This document shows positions 1 through 24,765 of a DNA stretch of 29,521 nucleotides, piece by piece. The notes under the pieces were generated by a model that was not told the DNA's origin, ran no database searches, and saw nothing but the letters and a program-made list of their open reading frames with translations. Each line of letters begins with the position of its first letter. The stretch's first letter is position 1. The DNA lies in NCBI GenBank assembly GCA_034722055.1, contig JAYENL010000093.1, forward strand, positions 1-29,521, given 5' to 3'. The translations under genes and the position numbers were made by a program. The stretch comes from Armatimonadota bacterium (GTDB taxonomy: Bacteria > Armatimonadota > Zipacnadia > Zipacnadales > UBA5352).

Positions 1-1
1 G

Positions 2-850
2 GCGGAGGATGGTGTGCACCTGGCGAGGACTTTGGGCCAGCCGCTGATCCCGAAGAACACCCCGCCGTTCAACAGCGTCTATCTGCAGCCGCAGGCGAAC
101 CCGGTGCGCCTGGGCGAGCGGCGGCTGTACTGGTACCGGTCGGGCAAGAGCGGCAGCGAGTGGAACATGGCGACGATCCGGCTGAACGGGGAGGCGCTGT
201 ATCGGCTGGACACGTCTGCGACGGAGGGCATGGTGGAGACGTGCGAGCTGTCGCGCCGTGGCGAGATGTGGGACGAGCTGCGCGTGAACGCGGCTCCGAA
301 GGACGGCACGGTGGAGGTGTCGGTGCTGGATGCGGCGACCGGAGAGCCGGTGCCGGGCTTCGATTACGACGACTGCGACGGAGTGAGGGATGACGTGGAG
401 CAGCGGGTGAGCTGGCAGAGCGCGGGTCTGAGCGAGGTCACGTGCGGGCACGTAAAGCTGCGCTTCCGGCTGCGCAGACCCACGGCGGAGGACGCGTCCC
501 CGGAGCTTTACGGATGGATGATTGCGCCGCCACGGGCAGCGGATCGGCCGACGGTGACCACAGTGCAGGTGGAGGGGAAGACCAACCCGGCACGCGTGGC
601 GGATCCGCAACCGGAGCTGTCGTGGGAGTACGAGGATCGGCTGGACCGAGAGCAGACGGCCTACCAGGTGCTGGTGTCGTCGTCTGAGGAGAAGCTCGAT
701 GCCGACGAGGGTGACCTGTGGGACACGGGGGTGGTGCTCTCGGGCGAACACGAGGTGAAGTACGGGGGCGCGGAGCTGGATTCGGAGCGGACGTACTTCT
801 GGAAGGTGCGTGTGCGCAACAGCGAAGGAGCGTGGTCCGAGGAATGGTAG
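2..850 (+). CDS. Partial (5' truncated) glycosidase-like protein with a C-terminal Fn3-like domain
   Basis: Frame is open to the window edge. ELRVNAAPKDGTVEVSVLDAATGEPVPGFDYDDCD..KLRFRL..LYG resembles the beta-sandwich that follows beta-propeller glycosidase domains. PQPELSW..QTAYQVLVSSS..DLWDTG..YFWKVRVRN resembles the Fn3-like N-terminal domain of GH78 rhamnosidases. The stop overlaps the next start. Confidence 0.7.
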   Translation, partial: AEDGVHLARTLGQPLIPKNTPPFNSVYLQPQANPVRLGERRLYWYRSGKSGSEWNMATIRLNGEALYRLDTSATEGMVETCELSRRGEMWDELRVNAAPKDGTVEVSVLDAATGEPVPGFDYDDCDGVRDDVEQRVSWQSAGLSEVTCGHVKLRFRLRRPTAEDASPELYGWMIAPPRAADRPTVTTVQVEGKTNPARVADPQPELSWEYEDRLDREQTAYQVLVSSSEEKLDADEGDLWDTGVVLSGEHEVKYGGAELDSERTYFWKVRVRNSEGAWSEEW

Positions 851-1500
851 CGTCGGGGGTCTTCACGACGGCGAACCTGACATCGTACTGCTCGGCGGAG
901 GACGTGCTGGAACTGCTGCGGGCGTATGATCTCTCTGACTGGGGAAGCGAGGAGGAGCTGACAGGGAGGATCGCGGGGCTGCTGGGGGAGACTCGGGCGG
1001 CGATCGACAGCGCGGCGGGCCGCGACTTCCTGCTGCACGCGGACGAGACTGTACACGTGGACGGAACGGGGACGCGGGTGCTGCTGCTGGGGCCGCTTGG
1101 GCTGACACCGGTGGTGTCGGTGGAGAGCGTGAGCGTGGATGGCGCGGAGCTGGAAGCCGACGAGTGGCTGCTGTATCCGGAGGAGACGGCAATCGTGCTG
1201 GCGGCGTCCAGCGATCTGGGGAGTCGGTTCCCCGAGGGGCGGCAGAACATCACGATCGTGCTGGACTGGGGATACGAGCAGACGCCGGCGGATGTGCGGA
1301 CAGCGCAGGCGAAGCTGACGGCTGCAGAGCTGCTGGCGCGGATGACGGGCGAGGAGGGTGGGGTGGAGTCCGTGAGCGTGGGAGACTACAGCGTGAGCTA
1401 CGGAAGCGCCGGCCGGTTTGCCTACAGCGTGCGGCGGCTGGTGGCCGAAGCGAATGAGGTAGTGGCGCGCTACCGGCGGCTCGACTTCTGCGCGATCTGA
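844..1500 (+). CDS. Phage head-tail connector/adaptor (HK97 gp6 / SPP1 gp15-like, long form)
   Basis: ATG at 844 overlaps the upstream stop. Motifs YCSAEDV, AIDSAAGRDF, PVVSVESVSVDG, FPEGRQNITIVLDWGYEQTPADVR, VESVSVGDYSVSY and C-terminal ARYRR. Confidence 0.85.
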   Translation: MVASGVFTTANLTSYCSAEDVLELLRAYDLSDWGSEEELTGRIAGLLGETRAAIDSAAGRDFLLHADETVHVDGTGTRVLLLGPLGLTPVVSVESVSVDGAELEADEWLLYPEETAIVLAASSDLGSRFPEGRQNITIVLDWGYEQTPADVRTAQAKLTAAELLARMTGEEGGVESVSVGDYSVSYGSAGRFAYSVRRLVAEANEVVARYRRLDFCAI

Positions 1501-1518
1501 GAGGAGGCTGACCTGCGG

Positions 1519-2052
1519 ATGGTAGATGCGACCTTCCGGGAGCTGATGACCGGTGAGGCGGCGGTGATGCGTCCGGATGTGGACCTGGACGGCGAAGGGG
1601 GGCTGAAGACGCCGGTTTACGAGGAAGTGCAGAGCGGGGTGCGAGTGCGGATCGCGCGGGCGAGGACGGACAGCGAGGATGACCTGCTGGGCAGGGCGGA
1701 GGACATCAGCCACGTGGCGTACGGCGAGGTGGTGGATGTGCGGCCGGCGGACCGGCTGGTGACTCGGCCGGTGCAGACGGCCCTGGCTGAGGACGTAGAG
1801 AGTGGGGCGACGGAGCTGCCGGTGGCGTCCACAGATGGTCTGCATGACGGCCAGGATGTGGAGATCGGTGCAATCGTGGAGGAGCGGGTGATTACGGTCG
1901 TGGGCGCAAGCTCGATTACGGTCAGCCCGGCGCTGGAGGCGGAGCACAGCGCGGGTGAGGCCGTGAGGGTTGTGGAGCAGTACGAGGTGGTTGCGGTGGA
2001 GGACGCGGCCGGGGCAGGTCATCACCTGCGGATGATGGTCAGGAAGCTGTAG
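1519..2052 (+). CDS. Phage head-closure protein (SPP1 gp16-like) with an inserted beta-rich domain
   Basis: Follows the connector; GGAGG RBS. DGEGG..VYEEV, DVRPADRLV and YEVVAVEDAAGAGHHLRMMV are typical of head-tail joining proteins. Confidence 0.7.
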   Translation: MVDATFRELMTGEAAVMRPDVDLDGEGGLKTPVYEEVQSGVRVRIARARTDSEDDLLGRAEDISHVAYGEVVDVRPADRLVTRPVQTALAEDVESGATELPVASTDGLHDGQDVEIGAIVEERVITVVGASSITVSPALEAEHSAGEAVRVVEQYEVVAVEDAAGAGHHLRMMVRKL

Positions 2053-2085
2053 AGGCGGGAGCGGTGAGGACGGCGGATCGAGTCA

Positions 2086-2119
2086 TGGCGGGCGGCCTGG
2101 AGGCGGAGGCCGCCCGCCA
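2086..2119. repeat. Perfect 13-bp inverted repeat (intergenic hairpin)
   Basis: TGGCGGGCGGCCT-N8-AGGCCGCCCGCCA; no U-tract. Confidence 0.85.
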
Positions 2120-2182
2120 GCGATTCGGGAGCGGCGCATCAGATACAAGCGAGGCGGGTACCGCGATACGGAGGGAAAGCGA

Positions 2183-2869
2183 GTGGCAGCAGACATGTTC
2201 CGCCAGAACGAGATCGCGCGGGCGATCCGCATGCTGTGCCAGGGCGCGACGGCGCTGACGGCGGACGCGTCGGGGGGCGACCAGGTGAGCGTCGGCTCGA
2301 ACGAGATGTTCGAGGTCGGGCAGCAGGTGCGACTTCGAGACGCAGCCGGCGAGGAGGAGAAGACGGTCTCGGGGCTGGTGGGCCTGACGACGGTGAAGTT
2401 CACTGAGGCGATCAGCGGCGAGTACCTGGTGAGCCGGGGCGCACGGCTGGAATGGGCGGACAACCCGCTGGGGACCGTGCAGTGGGTGGGCCAGGGATCG
2501 CCGGAGCTCATGCCGCGGTCGCCTGTGGAGCGTTTCCCGTGTGTGCTGGTGCTTCCCGGTGAGATGCATCAGCCGCTGAACGAGGGGACGAACCGGACCT
2601 TCCAGCAGGATTACAGCTTCAGGGTCTACTACGTGATGCAGCACGATGAGGGTCAGCGTGCGAACATTGAGGTGCTGGATCGAGCGGCGACGCTCTTCAA
2701 CGTGCTGATGGCAGACCCCTACCTGGGAGGGACGTGCTGGCACAGCCAGGTGACGAGGGTGGATCCGGACCCGGCAGTTCAGGAGCGGCTGAGAGAAGAT
2801 GAGCGACCGCTGCGGGTCGTGGAGCTGACGGTCATGGCGCGGCGAGCGGCGCTGTGGAAGCCGGCTTGA
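2183..2869 (+). CDS. Putative tail terminator/completion protein (lambda gpU-like) with an inserted domain
   Basis: Directly upstream of the tube gene. RFPCVLVLP..YSFRVYY..LFNVLMADPYLGGTC..VVELTV pattern; GTG start with a GAGGG RBS. Confidence 0.6.
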   Translation: MAADMFRQNEIARAIRMLCQGATALTADASGGDQVSVGSNEMFEVGQQVRLRDAAGEEEKTVSGLVGLTTVKFTEAISGEYLVSRGARLEWADNPLGTVQWVGQGSPELMPRSPVERFPCVLVLPGEMHQPLNEGTNRTFQQDYSFRVYYVMQHDEGQRANIEVLDRAATLFNVLMADPYLGGTCWHSQVTRVDPDPAVQERLREDERPLRVVELTVMARRAALWKPA

Positions 2870-2927
2870 CAGAGTTTGTGAGGAGATCAGGCGCTGAGAG
2901 CGCGGAGAGATACAGGGTGGTGTGAGC

Positions 2928-3833
2928 ATGGCCGTGGCACTTGCACAGGAGGGCAGCTTCGGCTTCGGGCTGCAGGTCGAGAGGGGGACATACGAGGCGC
3001 CGACGGTGTGGCTGCCGCTGATAAAGAGGAGCGGCGGGCGCGGAGAGGACATCCAACTGCACAAGAACTTCACGCTGCTGGATCTGGCGGACAGCAACGA
3101 GTATGAGAGCCGCTACTACTCGGCAGGCGAGTGGGCTGAGGGTGAGGTGGCGGTGCCGCTGATCCCCGGCTCGCTGACCGAGCTGCTGTCGTGGATGCAA
3201 GACCGCGACAGCAACAGCCAGGGGAAGTGGGCGTCGGCGCTGATAGACTGCGTGAACTCGGTGAAGAAGCTGACGGACGCCAAGGTGCGGCGGGCGAGGA
3301 TCAGCATGACCAAGGGCCAGCCAGTGGTGTGCACGCTGGACGTGGGAGCGCTGATGATGGAGGCGGGCTCACCGGTGAGCCCGACGATGCCGGAGGAAGC
3401 CCCGTACATCTTCCGGGAGGCGACAGTGGAGATCGCGAGCGGCGGCGGTGGTCTGTCGGCGGATGCCAACTGTGAGCGGATCGACATCGTTATCGACAAC
3501 GCGGTGGAGGAGATGAAGGAGGGGGTGCGGCTGGCGACCGGCCTGGCGCCGAGGCAGATGTACAACCTCTCGGGCGTGCGGTCCTGGGGGGCACTGAGTC
3601 GGGACTTCGTGGACAGCGCGGTGTACGCCGACTTCGCGAACGGGCAGGAGGCGGCGCTCTCAATCACGCTAACGCGGGGAGTAGCCAGCGCAGTGATCAC
3701 GCTGCCGCGGATACTGTACACGGCGAGCGACATGGGGCTGCCAGGGACGCACGACCAGCGGATCGTGGAGAAGGTGGAGTTCGTGGCCCTGGGGAGCGTG
3801 GATGGATTGACGCCGCCGGTGACGCTCACGTAG
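2928..3833 (+). CDS. Phage major tail (tube) protein
   Basis: About 300 aa and beta-rich. N-terminal FGFGLQVERGTYEAP and C-terminal VITLPRILY..IVEKVEFVAL resemble tail tube families. No sheath gene is adjacent. Confidence 0.75.
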   Translation: MAVALAQEGSFGFGLQVERGTYEAPTVWLPLIKRSGGRGEDIQLHKNFTLLDLADSNEYESRYYSAGEWAEGEVAVPLIPGSLTELLSWMQDRDSNSQGKWASALIDCVNSVKKLTDAKVRRARISMTKGQPVVCTLDVGALMMEAGSPVSPTMPEEAPYIFREATVEIASGGGGLSADANCERIDIVIDNAVEEMKEGVRLATGLAPRQMYNLSGVRSWGALSRDFVDSAVYADFANGQEAALSITLTRGVASAVITLPRILYTASDMGLPGTHDQRIVEKVEFVALGSVDGLTPPVTLT

Positions 3834-3870
3834 TGGGCGAAGCGATGGCAGAGGGAGGACGCAGGGACTG

Positions 3871-4167
3871 ATGAGCGAGGAGATCACGGTGAAGCTGTAC
3901 CGGACGAGCGACCTGACGGAGGCGGCGGCGTTGTGGTCGCTGGGGCATCCGCTGCACAAGATCGAGGTGCGGGAGAGCTGGGCGACATTCGTGATCGGCT
4001 ACGTGATCGACGACGAGGAGTTCGAGGAGCTGATTGACAGCTACCAGCGAGGGGAGCTGCTGGTGGAGGCCGGCGAGTTCGCCCGGCGGAGGAACGAGAC
4101 TGCCGCGAAGATGCGCCGGGCCATCGCGGAGGAGCAGTCCGAAGCGGGAGGTGACGGGGGTGAGTGA
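3871..4167 (+). CDS. Small protein, DUF5659-like
   Basis: YRTSDLTEAAALWSLGHPL..FVI..LIDSYQRGELLVEA resembles the DUF5659 pattern as recalled; not searched. Confidence 0.5.
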   Translation: MSEEITVKLYRTSDLTEAAALWSLGHPLHKIEVRESWATFVIGYVIDDEEFEELIDSYQRGELLVEAGEFARRRNETAAKMRRAIAEEQSEAGGDGGE

Positions 4168-4630
4168 CCGACCGCCACGGACCGACGCCTGGATCATCTG
4201 CGCAGCCGGTCGGGAGACGACGAGACGCTTCGAGGCCCCGGTTGACCCTCCTGGCTGGGAGGGTCGGCCGTGGGTGGTGCTGCGGCCGCTGACGGCGCGG
4301 GAGGCGCTGCGCCGGGAGAGCCTGGGCTTGGTGGAGGAGTACGAGCTTGTGGGCGACGGGACGCCACAGGTGCTGCGCCGGACGTACGACGCGGAGGCGA
4401 TGGTGGAGTTCGAGCTGGAGCGGTGCCTGGTGGACTACGAGCTGCCGATACGGGCAGACGATGGCGAGGTCGGGCGGCTAAGGCCGGAGGACGAGTCCGG
4501 GCAGCAGCGCAGGGAACTGCTGGATCGCCTGCCACCGGCGCTGATGACATGGCTGATTGAGTGCCTGGAGGCAGTGAACATGCGCCGGGCGGCGGACGCG
4601 GAGGTGCTGGCGGAGGCAAAAAAAGGCTGA
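4160..4630 (+). CDS. Tail assembly chaperone (gpG-like), 156 aa
   Basis: GTG at 4160 with a GGAGGTG RBS, overlapping the previous gene. VVLRPLTARE..CLVDYEL..LDRLP motifs; ends EAKKG on an A7 run. Confidence 0.75.
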   Translation: MSDRPPRTDAWIICAAGRETTRRFEAPVDPPGWEGRPWVVLRPLTAREALRRESLGLVEEYELVGDGTPQVLRRTYDAEAMVEFELERCLVDYELPIRADDGEVGRLRPEDESGQQRRELLDRLPPALMTWLIECLEAVNMRRAADAEVLAEAKKG

Positions 4631-4662
4631 GGGGCGCCGCTGAGGCGATGGCCAGCGGCCTC
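4600..4662 (+). promoter_or_regulatory. Programmed -1 ribosomal frameshift signal
   Basis: Internal SD GGAGGTG at 4600-4606, slippery A AAA AAA at 4618-4624, stem GCCGCTG/CAGCGGC at 4636-4659. Confidence 0.8.
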
Positions 4663-4959
4663 GACGTGGCATGGCTTGACCTGCCTGCCGAGCCTGCGGT
4701 GGAAGATGAGCAGCTCCGAGAGGGCAGGGACTTCGTTGGAGTCGAGGAGCTGATGTCCCGGAGCGGCCGGCGGGACCGGCGTGTGGTGGACGTGGAGATC
4801 GCCGGGAGGCTGGCACGGGCGGTGATCGAGGAGATGCGGTGGGCCGGGTGGAGCGGAGAGCTACCGGGAGGGCTGCCCTGGGACAGGCAGCCCTCCTGGC
4901 GCGTACGGCTGTGGGAGCACTGGCTGTCTGTTCGCGACGAAGCGGTGGCCCAGAGATAG
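4624..4959 (+). CDS. gpT-like frameshift extension of the tail assembly chaperone (GT fusion about 266 aa)
   Basis: The -1 frame is open across the slippery site to TAG at 4959. The Trp-rich end ELPGGLPWDRQPSW resembles T-type segments. Confidence 0.7.
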   Translation, partial: RLRGAAEAMASGLDVAWLDLPAEPAVEDEQLREGRDFVGVEELMSRSGRRDRRVVDVEIAGRLARAVIEEMRWAGWSGELPGGLPWDRQPSWRVRLWEHWLSVRDEAVAQR

Positions 4960-4979
4960 GCATTGTGAGGTGACGGAGA

Positions 4980-5561
4980 GTGACCGTCTTCGACGAGCGG
5001 TCCGTGGAGCTGCGGACGCCATGGGCTCTGCGCGCACGGGAGAGTCTGCGCTATCTGAGGCAGTTGGGTGCACGGGTGATGGCGCCGAGAATAGCGCTGG
5101 ACCTGATGGGGGTCCGTGAGCATCTGAGGCCGCCAGGGCCGGGCGGGGATGAGGCACTGGTGGCGGCGCCAGCGGCCGGTGCCCCGCCCGCGCAGCGAGT
5201 GACAGGGGCCGGCGGCGCGGAGGGGCGGTTGGCCGAGGAAGTTGCAGCTACCGGGAACCGGCCTGTGGCTGGTGCTCTCGCACTCGGCGGGTGGCCCAGG
5301 CGCGCTATCAACGGTGGGGTGGTGACGCACCGAGTGGCGGCCGGGCTGCAGACTCCGTTGATGGCTCCGGCCGCGCCCTCCGTGGTGGAAGTGCCCGGGG
5401 CCGATGCGCTGTCAGCGCAGGCCGTGATGGGCAGGGAGCGCAGTATCGGCGCGACTGCAGAAGCGGCGCCTTACGCGAAGGAGATATCGAGGAGCAGCCC
5501 GGCCCAGGGCGGAGATAGGGAGCGGGTCGTGCGGCGGGAGCGGGTGGATCTGCACCGGTGA
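4980..5561 (+). CDS. Ala/Pro/Gly-rich hypothetical protein in the tape-measure position
   Basis: 193-aa ORF with a GTG start and purine-rich RBS, filling the gap between GT and the tip genes. Function is inferred from position only. Confidence 0.5.
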   Translation: MTVFDERSVELRTPWALRARESLRYLRQLGARVMAPRIALDLMGVREHLRPPGPGGDEALVAAPAAGAPPAQRVTGAGGAEGRLAEEVAATGNRPVAGALALGGWPRRAINGGVVTHRVAAGLQTPLMAPAAPSVVEVPGADALSAQAVMGRERSIGATAEAAPYAKEISRSSPAQGGDRERVVRRERVDLHR

Positions 5562-5621
5562 TGTCCGGCAGATGGCTGAGAGGCGCAGGCACCTGACAAG
5601 AGCGAGGATGAGAGGATCGAC

Positions 5622-8600
5622 ATGGCACTGGTGAATCCGGGGCTGGGCGAGAGCCTGTTGGACTGCGTGAGCGCCGTCGAGACGAAGGAGTCGGATGCGG
5701 GCGACGACACGGTCGCGGGGCGTGCTGAGAAGCGAGCATTGAGTGGGCACATCGTGCTGCTGGCGAGCTTCCTGGACCGCGGCGACGGCACAAATGCGCT
5801 GGACTACGACGACGCCCAGCGAAGCGATGCCGAGAACTACTACAAGCGGCTGACTGTGGGGATGGCGGCGCGACTGCTGGAGCGGCTGGAGGGCGAGCCG
5901 GAGCGGACGTGGCCGGAGGTCGGCGAGCTGGCGCAGATCCTGTCGGACCTGACGACCACCGAGGATACCTCCTGGCGGCGGGAGATCGTGCCTCTGGGCC
6001 AGGACACGGGAGTGACGGTGGAGCTGCGGCAGACGGTGGCGGGAAGCGCATCCTTCGATACGCCGGGCGGGACGGTCACCGCGCACGTGTACCAGGCGCG
6101 GAGCCCGGACGTGGCACTGAACGGAGTGGACGTCTATCTGCTGGAGATGCTGCCGGAGGAGGGCGACGAGGAGCCGACTGAGCGGTACGCGGTGATGGTC
6201 GATGATCCGTGGTGGGGGCGGAGAATCCAGCCGGCGAGCTTCACGGAAGCGCCACTGACCGAGCACGTCACGATGGGCTACCGGCTGCGGGGGCGGATTC
6301 TGAGTGACGGGACGCCGGTGGCGGACGCGAACGTGAGCCTGGAGCTGGTTCTTGACACGGCCGAGGACGGCATCGTGATCGCCTGGGACAGCCTGGAGTA
6401 CAACGAGCTGATCTGGGACGCGGAGCTGTCCACCTACGTTGAGGGCGCGCAGGTGTTCGCGCCGATACGGACCGATGCGGACGGCCGGTGGGAGTTCATT
6501 GCGCCGAAGGGACACGGAGCGCTGTACCAGCGTGCGGGTGACAGACGGGACGATACGCCGCAGAGCGGGGCGGGACGCCTGCCGCGGATGCTGAGCGAGG
6601 TGCGGTGCGCGTACCTGGGCCGGAAGGTGCCCGTGTACGAGGGTGTGGAGGCCGTGCTCGACATCCTCAGCGGGACGCTGGAGGTGAGCGGGGAGCCGGA
6701 CGCGGCGATTCGGGTTGGGACGCTGGACGATCCCGGGGCGGAGTACACCATACCCCCTGAAGGGACCGTGACGATCACCGGTCTGCCGCAGGCCGAGCAC
6801 AGTGTGGTGGCCTACAAGGTGACGGCGTGGGGGACGTGGGACCAGAGCTATGGCTGCGCGCGACAGACTGCGGAGGTGCAGCGGGGGGAGACCACGAGCG
6901 TTTCGATGGGGCCGCTGGAGCACTACACTGATCCCGACATGATCTGCGGGCGGGTGTACCAGCGACCGGGCGTGCCGGCTGAGGGAATCGACATCGTGGT
7001 CATCGACACGGAGCTGTATGAGATCGTGGGGACGATAGCCACGACAGGTCCCGACGGGTACTGGGAGGCGACAGTTCCGCCGGAGGGGCTGGGCGGGCAG
7101 CCGTCGATCCACGATCAGGAATGGGGCTCCATGCCGGTGCTCGGGACGCCCTACTCGGATGTGGTGCTTGGGGCGCGGGCCTATGCGGCGCCGTACGAGC
7201 AGTACAAGCCCGAGGCGTGGCGGAGGCCGCTGCGGGGACACAAGAACTTCCAGTGGTGCCCGCGCAGCGTGGTGGTGCGGGAGTGCGACAGTGGTGAGAC
7301 ATACGACACGAAGGAGCTGGACTACGGGGGCTGGATCACGACGGGGACGCTGCCGAAGTTCAAGTATGTGCCGGACATCATGGATCTGGTGGAGGGCGGT
7401 GCGCAGCCGCACCAGTATGACGTGGTGGTGGACGGGGAAGTGAAGGACCCGTCATTCGAGCTGCGAGGCCAGCCGTTCGACGACAGCGGGAGCGGGGCCG
7501 GTGAGTATCGCGCGGCGGGATACTACCCGGAGCAGAAGCTGCTGCTGGGCGGGAAGGTGCACGGGAACACGCTGGTCGGCGACGAGGAGCGGGTGAGGGG
7601 GAATCTGCCGGAAGCGGCGCGCGTGGGGCTGGAGTTCGGTGAGCACGCCAGGTTCGTCGAGGCAAGGATGAGAGGGGGCGTGGTGACGCGGGCCGGCATG
7701 GCGGATCTGGTGTGCCCGTACTGCGGCGGACCGGCGCGCCGGGGGCCAAGCGGGGACTATCTGCACGGATTCTGCATGCAGTGTGCGGACGCCTTCGGGC
7801 GTGCGGATGCGATGGATTGCCGGGGGTACTTCGAGACGCCCACCATGGCGGCGCAGGCGGAGCCGGGCTACGGGATGCGGCTGGTGCGGCTCTCAGAGCG
7901 GGAGGGGAGCTGGTCGCGGCGGGTGAGGTATCACTGGCGGCCGGACCTGTATGACGAGACGGAGGACTTCGTGACGCAGAGCGGACCGGGCCAGCCCACG
8001 AATGCGCCCAGATGGGTGGCGAAGCACGTTGACGAGGTGAATGACGGGCTGGGCTTCGGGAAGTTCGACGGCGATCAACAGGAGCCGTTCGTGCCGGGCC
8101 ACAACGTGGCGTTCTTCGAGGGCCTCCCGGAGATCGACAGGGAGCTGGGAGTGACGGCGCTGAAGCTGGTATTCCCCGATGGGCACGTGTCGCCGCTGAC
8201 CTACACGGTGGAGATTGACTGCGTGCGCGCGGACAGTGTCATCGAGACGTGGACGGTGACGGTGCCGGCCGGGACGGCCGGGCCGGATCAGGACGACGAG
8301 TTCGGGGACGCGATCCCCGTGGTGGCGCGCCCGAAGCTGGTGGCGGAGTCGGTGAGCAGCCCCTACCGGAACGTGGGCCTGTACAGGGCCGTGGCGGACG
8401 TGCGCCTGGTGGAGCCGCAGAGCGCACCGGGCTGCCGGTTCACGATCGTGAACGACGTGCCCTGGCTGGCGGCGGCGGATGGCGTGCCCGTGGAGACCGA
8501 GAGGGCGACGCCGGTTGCCATCCAGATGGCCCGGATGTGGGGGAACCCGCACCTGATGGACGACGCGGTAGGGCAGCTTTTCCTGTTCTTCGCCGCAGGC

Positions 8601-8804
8601 GGGGACATCTACATGCGGCGGCGGGCGGGGCTGCCGGGCGAGTGGACGGCGGCGCGTCGGATCACAGAGGGCGGCGACGCCGACGAGCCGTGGGCCGGCA
8701 AGGATGCAACGGGCACGATGGTGCTTGTCTGCAGCCGGGGCGGCGGGCGGGTGTCAGTCCTGCGGTCCATTGATGACGGCGAGACCTGGGAAGAGGTGGA
8801 GTGA
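5622..8804 (+). CDS. Large putative tail-tip/adhesin protein (1060 aa)
   Basis: GAGGA RBS. Two carboxypeptidase-regulatory/prealbumin-like repeats (LRGRILSDGTPVADANV..TDADGRW; ICGRVYQRPGVPAEGI..TGPDGYW), a CPYC..CMQC motif and a C-terminal Asp-box SIDDGETW. Confidence 0.7.
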   Translation: MALVNPGLGESLLDCVSAVETKESDAGDDTVAGRAEKRALSGHIVLLASFLDRGDGTNALDYDDAQRSDAENYYKRLTVGMAARLLERLEGEPERTWPEVGELAQILSDLTTTEDTSWRREIVPLGQDTGVTVELRQTVAGSASFDTPGGTVTAHVYQARSPDVALNGVDVYLLEMLPEEGDEEPTERYAVMVDDPWWGRRIQPASFTEAPLTEHVTMGYRLRGRILSDGTPVADANVSLELVLDTAEDGIVIAWDSLEYNELIWDAELSTYVEGAQVFAPIRTDADGRWEFIAPKGHGALYQRAGDRRDDTPQSGAGRLPRMLSEVRCAYLGRKVPVYEGVEAVLDILSGTLEVSGEPDAAIRVGTLDDPGAEYTIPPEGTVTITGLPQAEHSVVAYKVTAWGTWDQSYGCARQTAEVQRGETTSVSMGPLEHYTDPDMICGRVYQRPGVPAEGIDIVVIDTELYEIVGTIATTGPDGYWEATVPPEGLGGQPSIHDQEWGSMPVLGTPYSDVVLGARAYAAPYEQYKPEAWRRPLRGHKNFQWCPRSVVVRECDSGETYDTKELDYGGWITTGTLPKFKYVPDIMDLVEGGAQPHQYDVVVDGEVKDPSFELRGQPFDDSGSGAGEYRAAGYYPEQKLLLGGKVHGNTLVGDEERVRGNLPEAARVGLEFGEHARFVEARMRGGVVTRAGMADLVCPYCGGPARRGPSGDYLHGFCMQCADAFGRADAMDCRGYFETPTMAAQAEPGYGMRLVRLSEREGSWSRRVRYHWRPDLYDETEDFVTQSGPGQPTNAPRWVAKHVDEVNDGLGFGKFDGDQQEPFVPGHNVAFFEGLPEIDRELGVTALKLVFPDGHVSPLTYTVEIDCVRADSVIETWTVTVPAGTAGPDQDDEFGDAIPVVARPKLVAESVSSPYRNVGLYRAVADVRLVEPQSAPGCRFTIVNDVPWLAAADGVPVETERATPVAIQMARMWGNPHLMDDAVGQLFLFFAAGGDIYMRRRAGLPGEWTAARRITEGGDADEPWAGKDATGTMVLVCSRGGGRVSVLRSIDDGETWEEVE

Positions 8805-9112
8805 TGGCATCCATCAGCGGACTGACCCACGGGATGGCCTTCGAGTACAACGGGCTGCTCTACGTGATCGGGTATCGGGCCGGGGGGCAGTATCTGCGGA
8901 GGAGCGCGGACGGGGGAGAGACGTGGCTGCCATTCGCGGATGAGGCTGAGGAGAAGCTGGTGGCGATGCCGTCGGATGAGCAGCGCGTGGCGTTCGTGAA
9001 GATGGCGACTCAGGGACGGGCGCTGGTCGTGGGGGTTCCGAACTTCCCGGAGATCGACGTATATGTGTCGCACGATGACGGGGAGAGCTGGACCCAGGAG
9101 CCGGCGTCGTAG
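8804..9112 (+). CDS. Small BNR/Asp-box repeat protein (102 aa)
   Basis: TGATG stop/start overlap; Asp-boxes RSADGGETW and VSHDDGESW. Confidence 0.75.
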   Translation: MASISGLTHGMAFEYNGLLYVIGYRAGGQYLRRSADGGETWLPFADEAEEKLVAMPSDEQRVAFVKMATQGRALVVGVPNFPEIDVYVSHDDGESWTQEPAS

Positions 9113-9136
9113 GAGCGATAAGCACGAGAGCCCGAG

Positions 9137-9176
9137 AGCGGTGGGCCTGGCGTCAGTTGACGCAGGGCCCGCCGCT
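9137..9176 (+). repeat. Long imperfect intergenic hairpin
   Basis: AGCGGTGGGCC-TG-GCGTC-AGTT-GACGC-AG-GGCCCGCCGCT. G-U pairs favour folding on the + strand. Confidence 0.75.
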
Positions 9177-9196
9177 TCTCTGCGAGAGGTGCAAGT

Positions 9197-11503
9197 ATGG
9201 CGAAGCGAGTGAGCCCCGTGGCCGAGGTAGAGCTGCTGGATCCCGGCCAGCAGTATCAGGTGAAGTACGACGGCTTCGCGCGGGCGGACCTGGTGGCCGA
9301 TCTGCTGGCGACGGGCCGGGCGCGGAGCAACTACGTTGACTGGCAGGGGCAGCCGGCGGTCGGAGATGCGGCGCGGCACAGCGCGGCGATGGTGGTGGGG
9401 CGGGGAGAGCTGAACGCGGTCATCGCGAGGCCGTTCCTGGACCACTCCCAGGAGATTGGCCTGGGACACTTCCAGACGCTGGCGGGGACGTGGCATGCGC
9501 TGAAGGGGATCGGTCTTCCTAACGAGGTGAAGCTCTACCAGTCGGACGGGGCGCCGAACCAGATGACGGGAGTGGAGAGCCGGTTCGACCTGCCGAACAA
9601 CCCCATCTTCTGCATCTCGCTGTACCGGGCGGAGCCGGGGCCCGACCACGACTGGAGCGCGCACCTGCCCCGGACGCAGATCAACTTCGGAATTGCGGGC
9701 CGGGAGAACTGGGCGCTGGTGCTGCCATACGCGGGTCCGGTCTTTCTGATGTACAACGGCCCGAACGGGTGGGAGCGGGTGTCGGAGACGGAGCGCACGG
9801 TGCGGGTGCCGACGCTGGAGGGATTCAGCGCCGGCCAGCGGCTGCTGTTGTGGATCGCGTGCCTGCGCGAGCGGATCGTGATGTCAACGGACGGCTTCGC
9901 GGACGACATCTGGATCTACGAGCGGCCGGGGCACTACCTGCGCATCCCGGGCGGGAAGCTGCGGCTGACGCACGTCGGGGGACAGTGGATGTTCTCGATG
10001 TTCCCCATCAGGATGGCGACGGCGGAGATCGACAGCGCGGGGATAGGCGCGGGATACGATACAGGCGAGAGTCTGGGAGAGCTGCTGCTGCAGGCCCAGA
10101 GGCTGCCGGTGGTGGACAACGACGAGAATATCCTCGCGGAGGTGACGGCCGAGGATACGACGGACAGCCGCGACGATCTGACGCCCACGCAGAGGGCCTG
10201 GCGAGCGACGATCGCCCCGTACACCCACACGCAGGAGGACGTGGGGACGGACCCTGACACCGGGGAGCTGGTGGACTTCACGACGCAGGTCTCGCCGGAG
10301 CTTTACAGCATGCAGATCGGCCAGTACGCGGAGGTCATGGATAACGGGGAGCCGGCCGCGACGGATATCGGCGCCGACGTGATCGCGCTGGAGAGCGATC
10401 ACCCGGACCGACTGCGGACGGGGCTGTGCGAGCTGGAGCTGGATAACCAGCTCGGTCAGCACACGGATATCGAGGAGCATCGCGCGGTGAGCGTTTCGCT
10501 GGGGTGGAAGATGTCCGATGAGCAGGTTGAGACTGCGGCGACGCTGTCTGGCTACGTTGTGGAGCCTCCGCCGCTTACCAAGGAGGGAGGCGACAGCGAG
10601 CTGTCGCTGACGGTCCTGGACCCGATGATCCGCCTGCGGGATGAGAAGTCTGACGGGCGCTGTCCGGTGTTCGACGGGTGGGCCGTCAGGGACGTCTTCC
10701 ACTGGGTGCTGGATCGATGCGGCCTGGCGCGAGCCGAGCAGGACCTGGAGGACACGGGTACGGTGCTCAGCGCGGGCCAGCCGGAGCGCCCGCTGTGGTA
10801 CGCGGAGCCCGGGCGGCCATGGACGGAGTTCCTGGATGAGGTGGCGCGGTTCGACTACAACGCAGGGATCTTCTTCGACGAGAGCGGTACATTCGTGAAG
10901 GCGTGCCGGCACTGCCGCACCAAGCGGACGGCGGAGAACGTGACCCAGCACGACGGAAGCGCCACGGGCGCGTGCCCGACGGCGGTGGACTGGGAGCTGT
11001 ACACGCGCGGGACAGCGGCGAGCGACCCGGAGGCTCCGGGCGAGATCCTGCGCATACGCAGGCCGCGGCTGAGCCTGTCGGCCGCGCGGGAGTTCGCGAA
11101 CTACGTGATGGTGTCGGGGGTGGGGCCGGACGGAATGCCGATAGCGGCGGTGGCCTACGACCCGGCATCGCTCTACGATCCCGACAGCGATCGCTACGTG
11201 GGCTGGCGGAAGATGCATGTGGAGGCGCTGGAGGCCTACATCTCCCAGGAGCTGGTCAACCGCCTGTGCCAGGACCGCTTCGCGGAGCTGTCTCAGCGCC
11301 CGGAGCACATCGAGATTATCACGCCGCTGCTGCCGGAGGTGCGCATCGGGCAGGTGGTCGCTGTGAAGGGCGGCGAGAGCGTGGGCGCCGATGACAGGAT
11401 CTACCGCGTGACGGCGGTACGGCACCTGGTAGACCGACGCAAGGACGATGCGGGCGCCGCCGTGACGCGGATCGAGGCGCGGTGGATCGGCAGCGTGTCA
11501 TGA
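9197..11503 (+). CDS. Putative tail-tip/baseplate hub protein (768 aa)
   Basis: The C-terminal half follows a hub/Tal-like pattern: ELELDNQLG, LTVLDPMIRL, IFFDESG, NYVMVSG, LLPEVRIGQVV..YRVTAVRH. Confidence 0.65.
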   Translation: MAKRVSPVAEVELLDPGQQYQVKYDGFARADLVADLLATGRARSNYVDWQGQPAVGDAARHSAAMVVGRGELNAVIARPFLDHSQEIGLGHFQTLAGTWHALKGIGLPNEVKLYQSDGAPNQMTGVESRFDLPNNPIFCISLYRAEPGPDHDWSAHLPRTQINFGIAGRENWALVLPYAGPVFLMYNGPNGWERVSETERTVRVPTLEGFSAGQRLLLWIACLRERIVMSTDGFADDIWIYERPGHYLRIPGGKLRLTHVGGQWMFSMFPIRMATAEIDSAGIGAGYDTGESLGELLLQAQRLPVVDNDENILAEVTAEDTTDSRDDLTPTQRAWRATIAPYTHTQEDVGTDPDTGELVDFTTQVSPELYSMQIGQYAEVMDNGEPAATDIGADVIALESDHPDRLRTGLCELELDNQLGQHTDIEEHRAVSVSLGWKMSDEQVETAATLSGYVVEPPPLTKEGGDSELSLTVLDPMIRLRDEKSDGRCPVFDGWAVRDVFHWVLDRCGLARAEQDLEDTGTVLSAGQPERPLWYAEPGRPWTEFLDEVARFDYNAGIFFDESGTFVKACRHCRTKRTAENVTQHDGSATGACPTAVDWELYTRGTAASDPEAPGEILRIRRPRLSLSAAREFANYVMVSGVGPDGMPIAAVAYDPASLYDPDSDRYVGWRKMHVEALEAYISQELVNRLCQDRFAELSQRPEHIEIITPLLPEVRIGQVVAVKGGESVGADDRIYRVTAVRHLVDRRKDDAGAAVTRIEARWIGSVS

Positions 11504-11527
11504 CGCGTGCCGGGGAGGTGCTGAGGC

Positions 11528-11767
11528 GTGGACGAGAGAGTGACGCTGCGGTCGCGGGCGCCCGGGCTGCGGGAGGCGATTGACAGCAGGACGCGACCGG
11601 GGCAGCCGGAGGGAACGCTGGTCGTGGACCGGGCGCCGTCGGCCGCGACGCTGAGCCCGCGCGGCCACATGGGCGCGAATCGGTATGACTGGACGGACGG
11701 GGAGAATCACGAGAGCGCGCTGTACGGGCGGGGTCGCTACGGGACCGGCCGCTATGCCGGCGCGTGA
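11528..11767 (+). CDS. Hypothetical protein (79 aa)
   Basis: GTG start after GAGG; fills the gap in the operon; YGRGRYGTGRY C-terminus. Confidence 0.55.
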   Translation: MDERVTLRSRAPGLREAIDSRTRPGQPEGTLVVDRAPSAATLSPRGHMGANRYDWTDGENHESALYGRGRYGTGRYAGA

Positions 11768-11803
11768 CGAGCTCGGAGATGAGTGGCAGAGGGAGGACCT
11801 GAG

Positions 11804-12502
11804 ATGGCGGGTGTTACGGACAACTACGGGCTGGCTACCGACGTGGCCGTGGACGACTTCGTGCAGCCCAGTCACAACAACCGCCTGGCCGACACGGTGG
11901 ATCGAGTGCTGGGGTCGGTGCTGAGGCGGCTGCTGACCGCGGGCGTGTATGAGGGGTGGAGCATCCAGGCCGACAAGACGGTGGGGCCGGGGCAGGGGCT
12001 GGTGGCGGCGTGCTGGTGCGAGACCACCGCCGCAGAGGCCATCAGCGGCCTGACCGACGGGGCGGTCAACCACGTGTTCCTGGAGGCGACCTCGGACTCG
12101 CCCCCGGAGGGCGACGTCTCTGTGTTCGCCCAGCTCTCCAGCAGCGGGCCGACCGACGCCATCTACCTGGGGACCATCGAGCTGGATGGCTCAGGCGCGG
12201 TGGTGACCATCGACAACCACGCGGAGGGCGTGGATCGGCAGTGCTACTCGCTGGCCTGGCGGAGCGTCTCGGGCGAGGGCACGGAGGCGGATGTGCCGGC
12301 CGGTGAGCAGGTGAGCTTCACGATTACGCACGAGCCGCTTCGGGTGCCGGGCGCGATCAGCCTGGAGTCGAGCTCTCCTGACTTCACGTGGGAGATCAGC
12401 GAGACGTGGCGGTCGGACAGCTTCACAGTGACGGTGACCAACAACGGGGGCAGCCAGGCGGACTTCGAGTACACCTGGACGAGGGAGGGCATCGCGGAGT
12501 AG
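11804..12502 (+). CDS. Putative tail fibre/distal structural protein
   Basis: ATG at 11804 with a GGGAGGA RBS. N-terminal TDNYGL..D.V..HNN..DTVD resembles fibre attachment segments; beta-rich, acidic remainder. Confidence 0.55.
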   Translation: MAGVTDNYGLATDVAVDDFVQPSHNNRLADTVDRVLGSVLRRLLTAGVYEGWSIQADKTVGPGQGLVAACWCETTAAEAISGLTDGAVNHVFLEATSDSPPEGDVSVFAQLSSSGPTDAIYLGTIELDGSGAVVTIDNHAEGVDRQCYSLAWRSVSGEGTEADVPAGEQVSFTITHEPLRVPGAISLESSSPDFTWEISETWRSDSFTVTVTNNGGSQADFEYTWTREGIAE

Positions 12503-12569
12503 TGGGCGTTACGCGGGCGGTGGCCGAGGATCCGGCCCCGAGCGTGAATGCTGGGGAGAGCTGAGGCCC

Positions 12570-12914
12570 GTGGAGAGCTCAGGACACCTGACGATGGTGC
12601 TGGCGGCCCTCGCGGGGCAGGTCTGGCCGTTCCTGCGATGCACCACGGCCGGGGTGCTGGGGGCGCTGGCGAACGTGGCCCTGGAGGACCAGGTGGTGGT
12701 GCTGCCGAGGATGGAGAGCGGGCGACTGCACCTGGGATTCCTGGGGAACCTGATCGTGGCCGTGACGATGGCGCACGTGGTGGACAATGACTTCGCGACG
12801 GCATTCTTCGCAGCGGTCTGCGGGACGACGACGCTGCGGACCCTTAAGAGGCGCATCGAGAGCGCCTTTGAGGAGGAGCGGAAGGAGATGGGCGAGGATG
12901 ATGACGCCGGCTGA
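12570..12914 (+). CDS. DUF4257-like membrane protein (holin candidate)
   Basis: AGVLGAL..VLPR..LHLGFLGNLIVA pattern, hydrophobic segments and a charged C-terminus. Start may be the ATG at 12594. Confidence 0.6.
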   Translation: MESSGHLTMVLAALAGQVWPFLRCTTAGVLGALANVALEDQVVVLPRMESGRLHLGFLGNLIVAVTMAHVVDNDFATAFFAAVCGTTTLRTLKRRIESAFEEERKEMGEDDDAG

Positions 12915-13194
12915 ACTGATGTGCGCACAGGTGGTGACCCTCGTCTGCGAGGGGCTGTTTCTGGCTGGCGCGGCGCTGGTGTGGCGAGCGCTTTACCACA
13001 TGAGGATCAACGGGGCCTGCCAACTGGGGCTGGGCCTCTTGGTGGTGTTGCGGGTGAGTGCTGCTGCATCGACGATAGGCGGCCCGCCGCAGAACCCTCT
13101 GACGTGGACGTGGCTCACTGAGGTGCTGTTCAGCTTCTCGTTTCTGTACCTGCTGTATCACATGGGGGCGCTGGTCTCCGCGTGTCGGAGGTAG
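12898..13194 (+). CDS. Small 3-TM membrane protein
   Basis: Tandem ATGs overlapping the previous gene; three hydrophobic stretches. Confidence 0.55.
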   Translation: MMTPAELMCAQVVTLVCEGLFLAGAALVWRALYHMRINGACQLGLGLLVVLRVSAAASTIGGPPQNPLTWTWLTEVLFSFSFLYLLYHMGALVSACRR

Positions 13195-13224
13195 GTGCGC
13201 CCGAGTCTGCTGCATCGAATCAGC

Positions 13225-13250
13225 GGCGCCCGCCCTCTGTGGCGGGCGCC
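13225..13250. repeat. Perfect 10-bp inverted repeat
   Basis: GGCGCCCGCC-CTCTGT-GGCGGGCGCC upstream of the holin. Confidence 0.8.
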
Positions 13251-13275
13251 AGCCATTAAGGGAGGCGATCGGAGG

Positions 13276-13578
13276 ATGGAGGTCATCGGCGAGTGGCTGC
13301 GCGAGATCCTGCTGCCGGGTCTGGGCACACTGCTGGTGGCGGCGGTACTGACGCTGGTGCGGCGCTACATCAACCGGCTGGACGATGAGCGCCTGCGCAG
13401 GCTGCTGCTGGAGCTGGTGCGGGCCGCGGAGCAGATCTACGGCCCCGGCCGCGGAGCGGCCAAGAGGCGCTGGGTCACTGAGAAGCTGCGCGAGATGGGC
13501 GTCGGGCCGGTGGAGCGTGACCGGCTGGAGGCCGCGGTGTACGAGCTGGAGAGCGACGCTCAGGCGACGCGGGAGTGA
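13276..13578 (+). CDS. Phage holin, LL-H family-like
   Basis: A single N-terminal TM, then LVRAAEQIYG..G.AK..V..L..LEAAVYE, the LL-H holin signature. Confidence 0.8.
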   Translation: MEVIGEWLREILLPGLGTLLVAAVLTLVRRYINRLDDERLRRLLLELVRAAEQIYGPGRGAAKRRWVTEKLREMGVGPVERDRLEAAVYELESDAQATRE

Positions 13579-13588
13579 CAGGCTCGGG

Positions 13589-13621
13589 AGTGCGGGCCGG
13601 GGATGATTCCCGGCCCGCACT
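13589..13621. repeat. Perfect 13-bp inverted repeat between holin and endolysin
   Basis: AGTGCGGGCCGGG-GATGATT-CCCGGCCCGCACT. Confidence 0.85.
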
Positions 13622-13654
13622 GCATGTACTTCGGCGGAAAGGTGGCGGGACGGG

Positions 13655-14329
13655 ATGCCGGTTGAGCGCGAAGTGAGCATGGAGCAGTTCGGCGCGCACC
13701 TGCGTGAGGTGCAGGTGGGGCGGCGCATCGATGAGGTGATCGTGCACCACACGTGGCGGCCCAGCGCGTCGGACTACCGGGGCATCGAGACGGTGCGGGC
13801 CGTCCGGCGGTATCACACGGGAGTGCGCGGGTGGTCGGACAACGGGTATCACGTGATGATCGGGCCGGATGGGAGCATCTTCCTCTGCCGGCCCCTGCAC
13901 CGGTCAGGCGCCCACACCGCGGGCAGGAACGCCCACAGCGTGGGCGTGTCCTTCATCGCGAACTTCGATCACGATGACCCCGAGCACTACCAGGGCCTGA
14001 CCACCGGGCACGAGGTGGTAGCCGCGCTGCTGGAGCGGTTCGATCTGGGAACCGCGGCCATCAGGTTCCATCGGGAGTTCGCGCCGAAGACCTGCCCGGG
14101 GCTGAAGCTGGGGCTGTCCGCCTTCCGCGAGGCGGTGGCTCAGGCAGGGGCCCGGGCAGCCGGCCAGCGGCCGAAGATCGTGCTGCTGCCGGGCAGTGAG
14201 CTGGTGTCGTGCAACGCGCGGATCGAGGACGGCGTGACGCGCGTGGACCTCAGGCCGCTGGTGGAGGCACTGGGCTACCGCATCCACAACCACCTCCGCG
14301 ACCAGGGGAAGCTCTACCTCGCCCGGTGA
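13655..14329 (+). CDS. N-acetylmuramoyl-L-alanine amidase (Amidase_2/PGRP-like endolysin)
   Basis: IVHHT, RGWSDNGYH, GAHT.G.N and HREFAPKTCPG zinc-amidase motifs. C-terminal DGVTRVDLRPLVEALGY is copper-amine-oxidase-N/stalk-like. Confidence 0.92.
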   Translation: MPVEREVSMEQFGAHLREVQVGRRIDEVIVHHTWRPSASDYRGIETVRAVRRYHTGVRGWSDNGYHVMIGPDGSIFLCRPLHRSGAHTAGRNAHSVGVSFIANFDHDDPEHYQGLTTGHEVVAALLERFDLGTAAIRFHREFAPKTCPGLKLGLSAFREAVAQAGARAAGQRPKIVLLPGSELVSCNARIEDGVTRVDLRPLVEALGYRIHNHLRDQGKLYLAR

Positions 14330-14393
14330 GGGGGTGGGGTGCCGGCTTGCGGGGGGAGACCGGGTCCCTCGGCCCGCGTCGGCGTGCCTCTTC

Positions 14394-14511: not shown

Positions 14512-14646
14512 ATGAAGAGGACACATCAGCCAAAGAAGAAGCGCACGAAGCGCAAGAGCGGCTTCCGGTCGCGGATGAAAAGCAAGGCCGGCCAGCGTAT
14601 CATCAAGCGGCGCCGAAAGAAGGGCCGCAAGCAGTTGGCGAAGTGA
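14512..14646 (+). CDS. rpmH: 50S ribosomal protein L34
   Basis: Not in the ORF track. Manual translation MKRTHQPKKKRTKRKSGFRSRMKSKAGQRIIKRRRKKGRKQLAK; GGAGG RBS. Confidence 0.97.
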   Translation: MKRTHQPKKKRTKRKSGFRSRMKSKAGQRIIKRRRKKGRKQLAK

Positions 14647-14673
14647 CGGCGCTCCGGGTGCGGCAATCCGATA

Positions 14674-16984: not shown

Positions 16985-17025
16985 CTGTCTGCTGCATTGA
17001 CACGCCTAAGGAGGACGCGCCGACG

Positions 17026-24760: not shown

Positions 24761-24765
24761 CCCAA

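What the first reader, a model, noticed from the sequence alone, without database searches (positions are those of the whole stretch)
2..14329. Candidate domesticated phage-derived particle system (GTA-like, short non-contractile tail) next to the rpmH operon
Seen: an intact, single-strand neck-tail-lysis operon with no obvious broken genes, no sheath and no long tape measure. It has host-like GC, several intergenic hairpins and a host-type glycosidase gene coupled into it, and it ends about 180 bp from the rpmH promoter. Known: GTAs such as RcGTA are compact siphovirus-like structural clusters with short tails at a fixed chromosomal locus. Connector and closure genes imply a capsid, which argues against a headless tailocin. 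Inference: this may be an undescribed GTA-like system in a probable Armatimonadota host. Caveat: normal prophages also end in a lysis cassette, so the missing integrase at this end is not diagnostic.
Basis: partly seen in the sequence, partly recalled or inferred. Interest (0 to 1): 0.88.

Follow-up and report, generated by a model that had tools for sequence, protein, structure and literature searches.

The report
Domesticated phage particle cluster in Zipacnadia
These uncultured bacteria keep one intact set of phage head, short-tail and lysis genes that is inherited like ordinary chromosomal genes and has no integration or replication genes, so it is most likely a previously undescribed gene-transfer-agent-like particle rather than a prophage.

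Summary
The window is the 3' two-thirds of a ~23-kb single-strand operon. The overlapping contig C128 supplies large terminase, portal, protease and capsid genes, then only host genes (no integrase, repressor or replication genes).

The host is Ca. Zipacnadia (Armatimonadota). Element genes occur in 46 of 66 order relatives (five of seven families), essentially single-copy and collinear. Cluster dN/dS is 0.11-0.37, synonymous divergence tracks rpoB, and 17 of 20 well-supported rpoB splits recur in the cluster tree. Terminase catalytic motifs are invariant, so DNA packaging is maintained.

Two oddities. The tape-measure slot holds a 140-300 aa, near-neutrally evolving ORF that keeps only a C-terminal motif. 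A putative small terminase, present in 17 relatives, is missing here and in 18 others, probably lost several times.

Corrections: the 'host glycosidase' is a conserved LamG/Ig-domain gene with no catalytic domain found, and the rpmH neighbourhood is lineage-specific. Domestication is about 0.9 likely; a true GTA role about 0.55 (random packaging and transfer are untested). It is not an RcGTA-family member. No paper on it was found in seven searches.

The parts
1..146 (+). Overlap with the end of contig C128 (145 of 146 identical). C128 carries the 5' third of the operon: promoter-like motif (C128 29473), TerL 29606-31093, portal 31420-32655, prohead protease 32652-33542, major capsid 34257-35189, and the start of the LamG protein at 35323. 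Upstream of these lie only host genes (membrane glycosyltransferase-like, two GT9-like, peptidase, rpsB-tsf-pyrH-frr-uppS; names read from the translations).
   Evidence: Logan contigs run 1097 nt past window position 1 in two runs
2..850 (+). C-terminal 282 aa of a ~1100-aa protein (LamG domain, unknown middle, beta-sandwich, Rha78A-like Ig domain). Conserved between capsid and adaptor genes; probably a head-attached glycan-binding appendage (inferred). The G000 copy spans a scaffold gap on C128.
844..1500 (+). Head-tail adaptor
   Evidence: phrog_442, E 1.3e-24
1519..2052 (+). Head-closure (stopper)-like protein with an inserted ~60-aa domain that two f5 genomes lack; assigned by position and a weak hit to a prophage gene in the same slot
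2183..2869 (+). Tail terminator-like protein (by position; no family hit)
2928..3833 (+). Tail tube protein (non-contractile type; no sheath gene)
   Evidence: PF18906 E 4e-10
3871..4167 (+). 98-aa DUF5659-like protein, found only in family f1; candidate regulator (lead only)
   Evidence: dN/dS 0.07 versus G001
4160..4959 (+). Tail assembly chaperone (4160-4630) with slippery A7G at 4618-4625 and a conserved -1 frame extension to 4959 (lambda G/GT-like; analogy recalled)
4980..5561 (+). 193-aa low-complexity ORF in the tape-measure slot; unalignable between genera except a C-terminal R-L-E/D-L-x-R-like motif; dN/dS 0.9 versus G001 with the frame kept
5622..8804 (+). 1060-aa tail-tip protein: 4-helix N-terminus (absent in some relatives), CnaB/pilin-like beta-sandwiches, invariant CxxC...CxxC, C-terminal propeller-like blades; model confidence low in part
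8801..9112 (+). 103-aa BNR/Asp-box protein, possibly completing a propeller with orf1060
9197..11503 (+). Baseplate hub (gp27/gp44/Tal fold, Z 24) with an inserted lectin-like domain at about residues 75-370
11528..11767 (+). Small conserved ORF (~75 aa), function unassigned
11804..12502 (+). 232-aa conserved protein, probably a baseplate upper or fibre component (inferred)
12570..13194 (+). Two small hydrophobic proteins (114 and 97 aa), probable lysis accessories (inferred)
13276..13578 (+). Holin
   Evidence: phrog_6918 E 2e-5
13655..14329 (+). N-acetylmuramoyl-L-alanine amidase endolysin; last gene of the element
   Evidence: PF01510, phrog_1493
14512..17733 (+). Host flank, not part of the element: rpmH-rnpA-yidD-yidC-jag. 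A Logan contig covers 10978-17253 across the junction.

Best explanation
An ancient siphophage head-tail-lysis module, domesticated near the root of Ca. Zipacnadales and working as a gene-transfer-agent-like particle. SHOWN: complete gene set, no integration or replication genes, vertical inheritance, purifying selection, intact terminase motifs, conserved upstream motif. INFERRED mechanism: a host-controlled promoter upstream of terL switches on one long operon in some cells. Capsid, portal and protease build an HK97-fold head. TerL cuts and pumps chromosomal DNA. With no replicating phage genome, and in this lineage no recognisable small terminase, it fills heads with host DNA without preference for its own genes. 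Adaptor, stopper and terminator attach a very short non-contractile tail, whose length is set by a 140-300 aa spacer anchored in the hub by its C-terminal motif. Lectin-like domains on the hub, orf1060 and the LamG protein bind surface glycans of kin. Holin and amidase lyse the producer, and the DNA enters kin for recombination or repair.
For: Head genes upstream, host genes beyond. TerL, MCP and tube essentially single-copy in 37/67, 32/61 and 35/61 genomes; union 46/66 relatives. Gene order kept. Cluster dN/dS 0.11-0.37 in 19 pairs, with dS close to rpoB dS (G000-G001 0.38 vs 0.36; G022-G027 1.15 vs 1.03). Trees share 20/26 splits (shuffles: mean 0.26, max 3), 17/20 well-supported; patristic r 0.81. 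Walker A/B and nuclease aspartates invariant in 26 TerL sequences. Host-type dispersed repeats inside the head operon, 119-179 hits on 81-104 contigs. Contig depth over cluster about equal to host flank (15.3 vs 13-14; 45-50 vs 37-47) (weak). Nearest cultured phage proteins only <=35% identical. A true prophage in G014 shows the ancestral state: integrase, repressor, TerS-like gene plus related TerL, 804-aa tape measure.
Against: No particle, packaged DNA or expression data. 17 relatives keep a putative TerS with an HTH-like N-terminus, whereas known GTA TerS proteins lack a DNA-binding domain (PMC11841831, passage read). The tape-measure-slot ORF is low-complexity and near neutral, unlike the helical RcGTA tape measure (PMC7296036, passage read), so DNA delivery may be defective. 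No distal-tail (Dit) gene was recognised. The element is absent or truncated in some good genomes (G021 96% complete, none; G020 and G046 only TerS-TerL-portal; f2 0/4). Three supported rpoB splits conflict with the cluster tree. dS is compressed by high GC, so dN/dS values are rough.
Confidence: 0.55

Rival explanations
1. PBSX-like domesticated particle: heads fill with host DNA, but the particle is kept for binding and killing or disabling competitors, not for delivering DNA.
For: Portal's best NCBIfam match is TIGR01540 portal_PBSX (156.8 bits, under its 166 cut-off). The capsid family phrog_1623 also rings in the B. subtilis control genome. The tape-measure slot is degenerate. PBSX packages 13.4-kb chromosomal fragments but acts as a tailocin (PMC12946183, passages read).
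Against: No sheath in the operon or genome, and no pore-forming or lysin domain recognised at the tip, so no killing device is evident. Strict vertical inheritance with conserved tip proteins fits kin targeting better than an arms race (inference).
Confidence: 0.2
2. Domesticated particle with another job, such as a glycan-binding or degrading matrix particle, a DNA-release or decoy device; DNA packaging is a by-product.
For: Lectin-like, LamG, CnaB and propeller domains make up about a third of the coding length. f4 genomes and G031 carry glycosyltransferase genes inside the operon.
Against: Terminase motifs, neck and tail-assembly frameshift are all conserved, more than a scaffold would need.
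Confidence: 0.15
3. Cryptic or satellite prophage remnant, or a family of temperate phages repeatedly integrating in these hosts.
For: Locus differs between families. Losses and truncations exist. One integrase lies 3.5 kb upstream in G025 (1 of 139 flank and insert proteins from 29 loci).
Against: No integrase or repressor at the G000 locus. The G025 integrase is on the opposite strand and was not seen beside the cluster in congeners G035 and G039. Host-congruent tree and host-like dS. No stops inside any TerL match. IMG/VR capsid hits: 6 of 7 are this same module without a replication gene in the fetched parts.
Confidence: 0.08

Closest known systems
RcGTA (Rhodobacter capsulatus) and other alphaproteobacterial GTAs
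   Same: Compact siphovirus-like head-neck-short tail cluster, short tape-measure gene, vertical inheritance with the host (PMC7296036 and PMC11841831, passages read)
   Different: Other phylum. Other portal and capsid families (PBSX-type portal, phrog_1623 capsid). Lysis genes inside the operon. Hub with a lectin insertion, a 1060-aa tip protein and an 1100-aa LamG protein, with no Dit, peptidase or megatron recognised. Tape-measure slot is low-complexity and near neutral rather than a helical trimer. TerS is absent or HTH-bearing rather than DNA-binding-domain-less. An independent domestication.
PBSX of Bacillus subtilis
   Same: Resident, non-replicating head-tail-lysis module; related portal family; capsid family present in B. 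subtilis
   Different: No sheath; very short tail; no repressor or sigma-like regulator at the locus (PBSX regulatory and sheath features recalled, not tested)
FpGTA of Faecalibacterium (PMC12946183, passages read)
   Same: Near-ubiquitous single-locus GTA-like operon outside Alphaproteobacteria
   Different: FpGTA is podovirus-like and shown to package host DNA; this one has siphovirus neck, tube and chaperone genes and is untested
Temperate siphophages of Armatimonadota (G014:C19, G080:C12)
   Same: TerL family and TerS-like gene (G014); tube family and TAC-TMP-hub order with a distant hub (G080, G014)
   Different: They keep 804-992 aa tape measures; G014 also keeps integrase and repressor (the G080 flank was not scanned); their other genes differ from the cluster's

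Membership tests
Gene transfer agents (functional class) | Phage-derived head, packaging motor, tail and lysis genes, intact | tested here: met
Gene transfer agents (functional class) | No own replication or integration genes at the locus | tested here: met
   one unlinked-looking integrase in G025
Gene transfer agents (functional class) | Vertical inheritance with the host under purifying selection | tested here: met
   G007 dropped as a misbinned contig
Gene transfer agents (functional class) | Small terminase without DNA-binding domain | tested here: inconclusive
   No homologue in G000 (best E 0.33) or 18 other TerL-bearing genomes; 17 relatives keep an HTH-like one
Gene transfer agents (functional class) | Host-controlled expression | tested here: inconclusive
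   Conserved upstream motif, one strict site in the genome; no regulator identified
Gene transfer agents (functional class) | Packages host DNA without preference for its own genes, in pieces too small for self-transfer | not testable with these tools
   needs purified particles
Gene transfer agents (functional class) | Transfers DNA to recipients | not testable with these tools
   hosts uncultured
RcGTA family | Alphaproteobacterial host | tested here: not met
   Armatimonadota, Ca. Zipacnadia
RcGTA family | Dit, hub, peptidase and megatron tail-tip set | tested here: inconclusive
   Hub fold present; orf1060 model partly low-confidence and searched only whole
RcGTA family | Sequence orthology to RcGTA genes | not tested
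   no direct comparison run; best cultured-phage hits are Streptomyces and Vibrio phages at <=35%
PBSX-like elements | Contractile sheath | tested here: not met
   no gene in the operon; PF04984 0 matches in the genome, control rings in B. subtilis
PBSX-like elements | PBSX-family portal and capsid | tested here: inconclusive
   TIGR01540 below cut-off; phrog_1623 shared with an unidentified B. subtilis locus
Tailocins / eCIS | Headless: no terminase, portal or capsid | tested here: not met
   all three present and conserved
Temperate prophage | Integrase, repressor and replication module next to the structural genes | tested here: not met
   positive control G014:C19 has integrase and repressor
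Temperate prophage | Patchy, mosaic, host-incongruent distribution | tested here: not met

The most novel reading that the evidence does not exclude
An independently evolved GTA lineage caught in mid-domestication. Several host lineages separately deleted the small terminase gene from between the promoter and terL, turning a sequence-guided packaging motor into a TerL-only random packager. The tape measure decayed into a sequence-free length spacer that keeps only its baseplate anchor. TerS-plus and TerS-minus relatives would give a natural experiment on how GTAs lose packaging specificity.
Probability: 0.3. Interest if true: 0.88.

Novelty: new variant of a known kind. Interest (0 to 1): 0.72.

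Why it matters
Reviews say GTAs cannot be found by homology and that very few are known outside Alphaproteobacteria (PMC11841831, PMC12946183; passages read). This cluster has the evolutionary signature of a GTA across five families of an uncultured order, from a different phage ancestor. It would extend GTAs to Armatimonadota. It also offers two testable handles on open questions: how packaging specificity is lost (TerS present versus absent) and what a minimal tail needs (near-neutral tape measure). It is also a source of false 'viruses': IMG/VR lists chromosomal copies as viral contigs.

Tried and rejected
PF03237 missed TerL in the own genome; PHROGs and the alignment profile found it. PDB sequence searches gave nothing for capsid, hub or orf1060. 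The orf1060 model is partly low-confidence; whole-model fold searches gave only generic helical-bundle, CnaB and propeller matches, so absence of a Dit fold is not shown. No RNA holder listed among public runs, so there is no information on expression. The sigma-70/terminator scan was at chance level. The G007-G010 near-identity (dS 0.006) looked like horizontal transfer but is best explained as a misbinned contig: host flanks are ~100% identical too, while G007's own rnpA-yidC is 67% identical; G007 was dropped from the congruence count. A genome-wide search for the upstream motif found no satellite loci. The host-glycosidase reading was rejected. Most stops flagged, and the single stops, are in hits that begin before the likely start codon; I did not inspect each one (G026 portal and G005 orf1060 unchecked). 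Literature: seven searches found no description. The paper naming Zipacnadia has no occurrence of phage, virus, capsid or gene transfer in its main text; its supplements and subscription papers were not seen.
Full report
OBSERVATION. The window is the start of contig C93 of a 6.1-Mb, 92.7%-complete genome. From 2 to 14329 all genes lie on the + strand without internal stops. They include an adaptor, a tail tube, a holin and an amidase. The AlphaFold model of orf768 (pLDDT 87.5) matches gp27/gp44-type hubs at Z about 24 and has a lectin-like insertion. No sheath or classic tape-measure family matches anywhere in the genome. GC equals that of host genes. Three of eight window spacers tested are significant hairpins. 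rpmH starts 182 nt after the amidase stop.

UPSTREAM FLANK. The last 146 bases of contig C128 match the first 146 of the window with one mismatch; such overlaps are common in this assembly. Logan contigs of two runs extend 1097 nt past window position 1, and one bridges 10978-17253 into the host operon (these two runs may be the source sample). C128 carries TerL, portal, prohead protease and major capsid. Beyond TerL lie 29 kb of ordinary host genes by my reading of the translations, with no integrase, repressor or replication gene. The element is thus about 23 kb, head to lysis, between the rpsB-tsf-pyrH-frr-uppS region and rpmH. The ORF at 2-850 is the end of a ~1100-aa gene present at this place in every locus that covers it. 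All 17 aligned members carry PF25788, 12 carry LamG, and none carries a glycoside hydrolase family. A 25%-identical full-length relative lies on phage-like contig C328. I read it as a glycan-binding virion appendage, not a recruited host glycosidase.

DISTRIBUTION. Named relatives are Ca. Zipacnadia / candidate division WS1, Armatimonadota. Capsid, tube and TerL were found in 32 of 61, 35 of 61 and 37 of 67 genomes, own genome included, essentially once each, at 54-98% identity for capsid and tube. Pooling, 46 of 66 order relatives hold element genes: f1 15/17, f3 1/1, f4 15/17, f5 12/16, f6 3/7, f2 0/4, f7 0/4. Not every genome was searched with every gene; four negatives were searched with TerL only. 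One positive (G007) is best explained as a misbinned contig. G020 and G046 show only TerS-TerL-portal followed by host genes, and G055 only a portal end. G021 (96% complete) gave no convincing hit. In 400 genomes of the phylum, hub hits outside the order are weak (E 1.9e-14 or worse). Gene order is constant. The locus is fixed within lineages but not between them. It lies next to rpmH in G000, G005, G008, G010 and G012, but not in G011 or G013. It is inverted next to jag in G022 and G027, and elsewhere in f4 and f5. Of 139 flank and insert proteins from 29 loci, one is an integrase (G025); it was not seen beside the cluster in two congeners.

EVOLUTION. In 19 genome pairs, cluster dN/dS is 0.11-0.37, and synonymous divergence is close to that of rpoB in most pairs (Nei-Gojobori, rough at this GC; two rpoB values saturated, two missing). 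Without G007, cluster and rpoB trees of 29 genomes share 20 of 26 splits (label shuffles: mean 0.26, max 3). 17 of 20 well-supported rpoB splits recur, and three conflict within families. Families f1, f4, f5 and f6 are each recovered as groups. Walker A, Walker B and nuclease aspartates are invariant in 26 TerL sequences. Dispersed host repeats have settled between the head genes. Contig depth over the cluster is about that of the host flank in the two evenly covered runs of four (weak evidence). The closest cultured phage capsid and TerL are 35% and 34% identical. Of 7 IMG/VR capsid hits, 6 are this module and 1 is a distant sheath-bearing phage.

TWO ODDITIES. (1) Tail length. The chaperone ends in a slippery A-run, with a conserved -1 frame, in most of the 16 loci printed; in G004 the site is lost and the frames are fused. 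The next ORF, in the tape-measure slot, is about 140-300 aa, low in complexity and unalignable between genera, but usually ends in an R-L-E/D-L-x-R-like motif. Against G001 its dN/dS is 0.90, while six neighbours give 0.07-0.40, and the frame is kept (one pair only). Related Armatimonadota prophages have 804- and 992-aa tape measures in this slot. (2) Small terminase. A ~190-aa ORF sits directly before terL in 17 genomes of f3, f4 and f5. It resembles terminase-associated HTH proteins by features (0.94) and the gene before TerL in the G014 prophage (hhalign 86%, E 5e-6). A predicted complex with its TerL gave weak support: score 0.51, best control 0.01, runs agreeing in at least 65% of contacts, partner pLDDT at least 54. 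At 0.60 or under, 18 of 157 solved complexes and both passing mismatches scored so. No homologue is found in G000 (best E 0.33) or in 18 other TerL-bearing genomes of f1, f6, f5 (g17, g22) and f4 (g27) (three have short upstream sequence). A conserved promoter-like motif lies shortly before terS where it exists and shortly before terL in f1, G022 and G040, where it does not. On the rpoB tree the TerS-less groups are separate (deep nodes partly unresolved), which suggests several losses. A relocated, unrecognisable TerS is not excluded.

MECHANISM AND RIVALS. Domestication is well supported (about 0.9). A conserved motor, head, neck, tail and lysis set without a genome of its own to package most simply means a GTA-like particle (0.55). 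A PBSX-like particle that fills with host DNA but serves in competition (0.2), or a glycan-binding particle with another role (0.15), cannot be excluded, mainly because the degenerate tape measure and missing Dit cast doubt on DNA delivery. A prophage remnant is unlikely (0.08).

COMPARISON AND NOVELTY. It works like a GTA on the genomic criteria that could be tested, apart from the mixed small-terminase result; the functional criteria could not be tested. It is not an RcGTA-family member (host, gene families) and not a tailocin (head present). Passages read: PMC11841831 (GTAs arose several times and cannot be located by homology; known GTA TerS lack a DNA-binding domain), PMC12946183 (PBSX, FpGTA; few GTAs outside Alphaproteobacteria), PMC7296036 (RcGTA tape measure of about 216 residues, five tube rings), PMC8987985 (purifying selection and vertical inheritance mark exapted elements), and PMC10290634 (term search only; no phage or virus mention). 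Seven searches found no description. An earlier unchecked note of this scan on another genome reached a similar reading (e1-716460); it is not independent evidence.

VERDICT. Real, domesticated, probably GTA-like; a new variant of a known kind in a phylum where my searches found none described. Interest 0.72.

Noticed in passing
L211:7431 / L212:10001 (IMGVR_UViG_3300037692_000675): A ~44-kb prophage (own portal, neck and TerL) is inserted in the hub gene of one copy of this cluster, with TG...CA ends and a 5-bp target duplication, as for Mu-like transposable phages (hallmarks recalled).
   Followed up: partly
L213:467-10013 (G111), L215 (G239), L217, L218: All 4 sampled genomes of same-class family f8 have a distant hub; G111 and G239 carry a different, smaller collinear capsid-tube-methyltransferase-like-hub cluster, with an endolysin and host genes beside it in G111. 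Possibly a second domesticated element.
   Followed up: partly
L228:7600-19500 (G113), L230 (G137), L219 (G080:C40): Further compact TerL-portal-capsid-hub clusters in other Armatimonadota families, with short genes in the tape-measure region; G088 has a lone hub gene among host genes.
   Followed up: no
L239/L240 (G014:C19): Ordinary temperate prophage with serine integrase, CI-like repressor, a TerS-like gene and a TerL of the same family; useful outgroup.
   Followed up: partly
L232 (G000:C328): Phage-like contig in the own genome with a full-length relative of the LamG protein, a protease-like gene and a 1849-aa helicase-like ORF.
   Followed up: partly
L042:17104-18165, L057:7674-8678, L059:8135-9133 and after the capsid gene in f4 and G031: GT4 and GT9-like glycosyltransferase genes are built into the operon in family f4; in f1, GT9 genes and a membrane glycosyltransferase-like gene flank it upstream. 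Particle glycosylation or receptor masking is possible.
   Followed up: no
L049, L050, L107, L167 (G031): The operon is broken up by host genes and toxin-antitoxin pairs, and the 3' part of the tube gene is duplicated twice on another contig.
   Followed up: no
window 24760-25530: Cluster of the genome's dispersed palindromic repeat family (665 hits on 128 contigs); similar dispersed repeats sit between the head genes on C128.
   Followed up: partly
window 15308-16984: YidC has a ~300-aa N-terminal extension before the PF02096 domain.
   Followed up: no
L060 (G007:C113) versus G010:C201 and C38: Contig near-identical between two genomes labelled as different genera; probable misbinning.
   Followed up: yes
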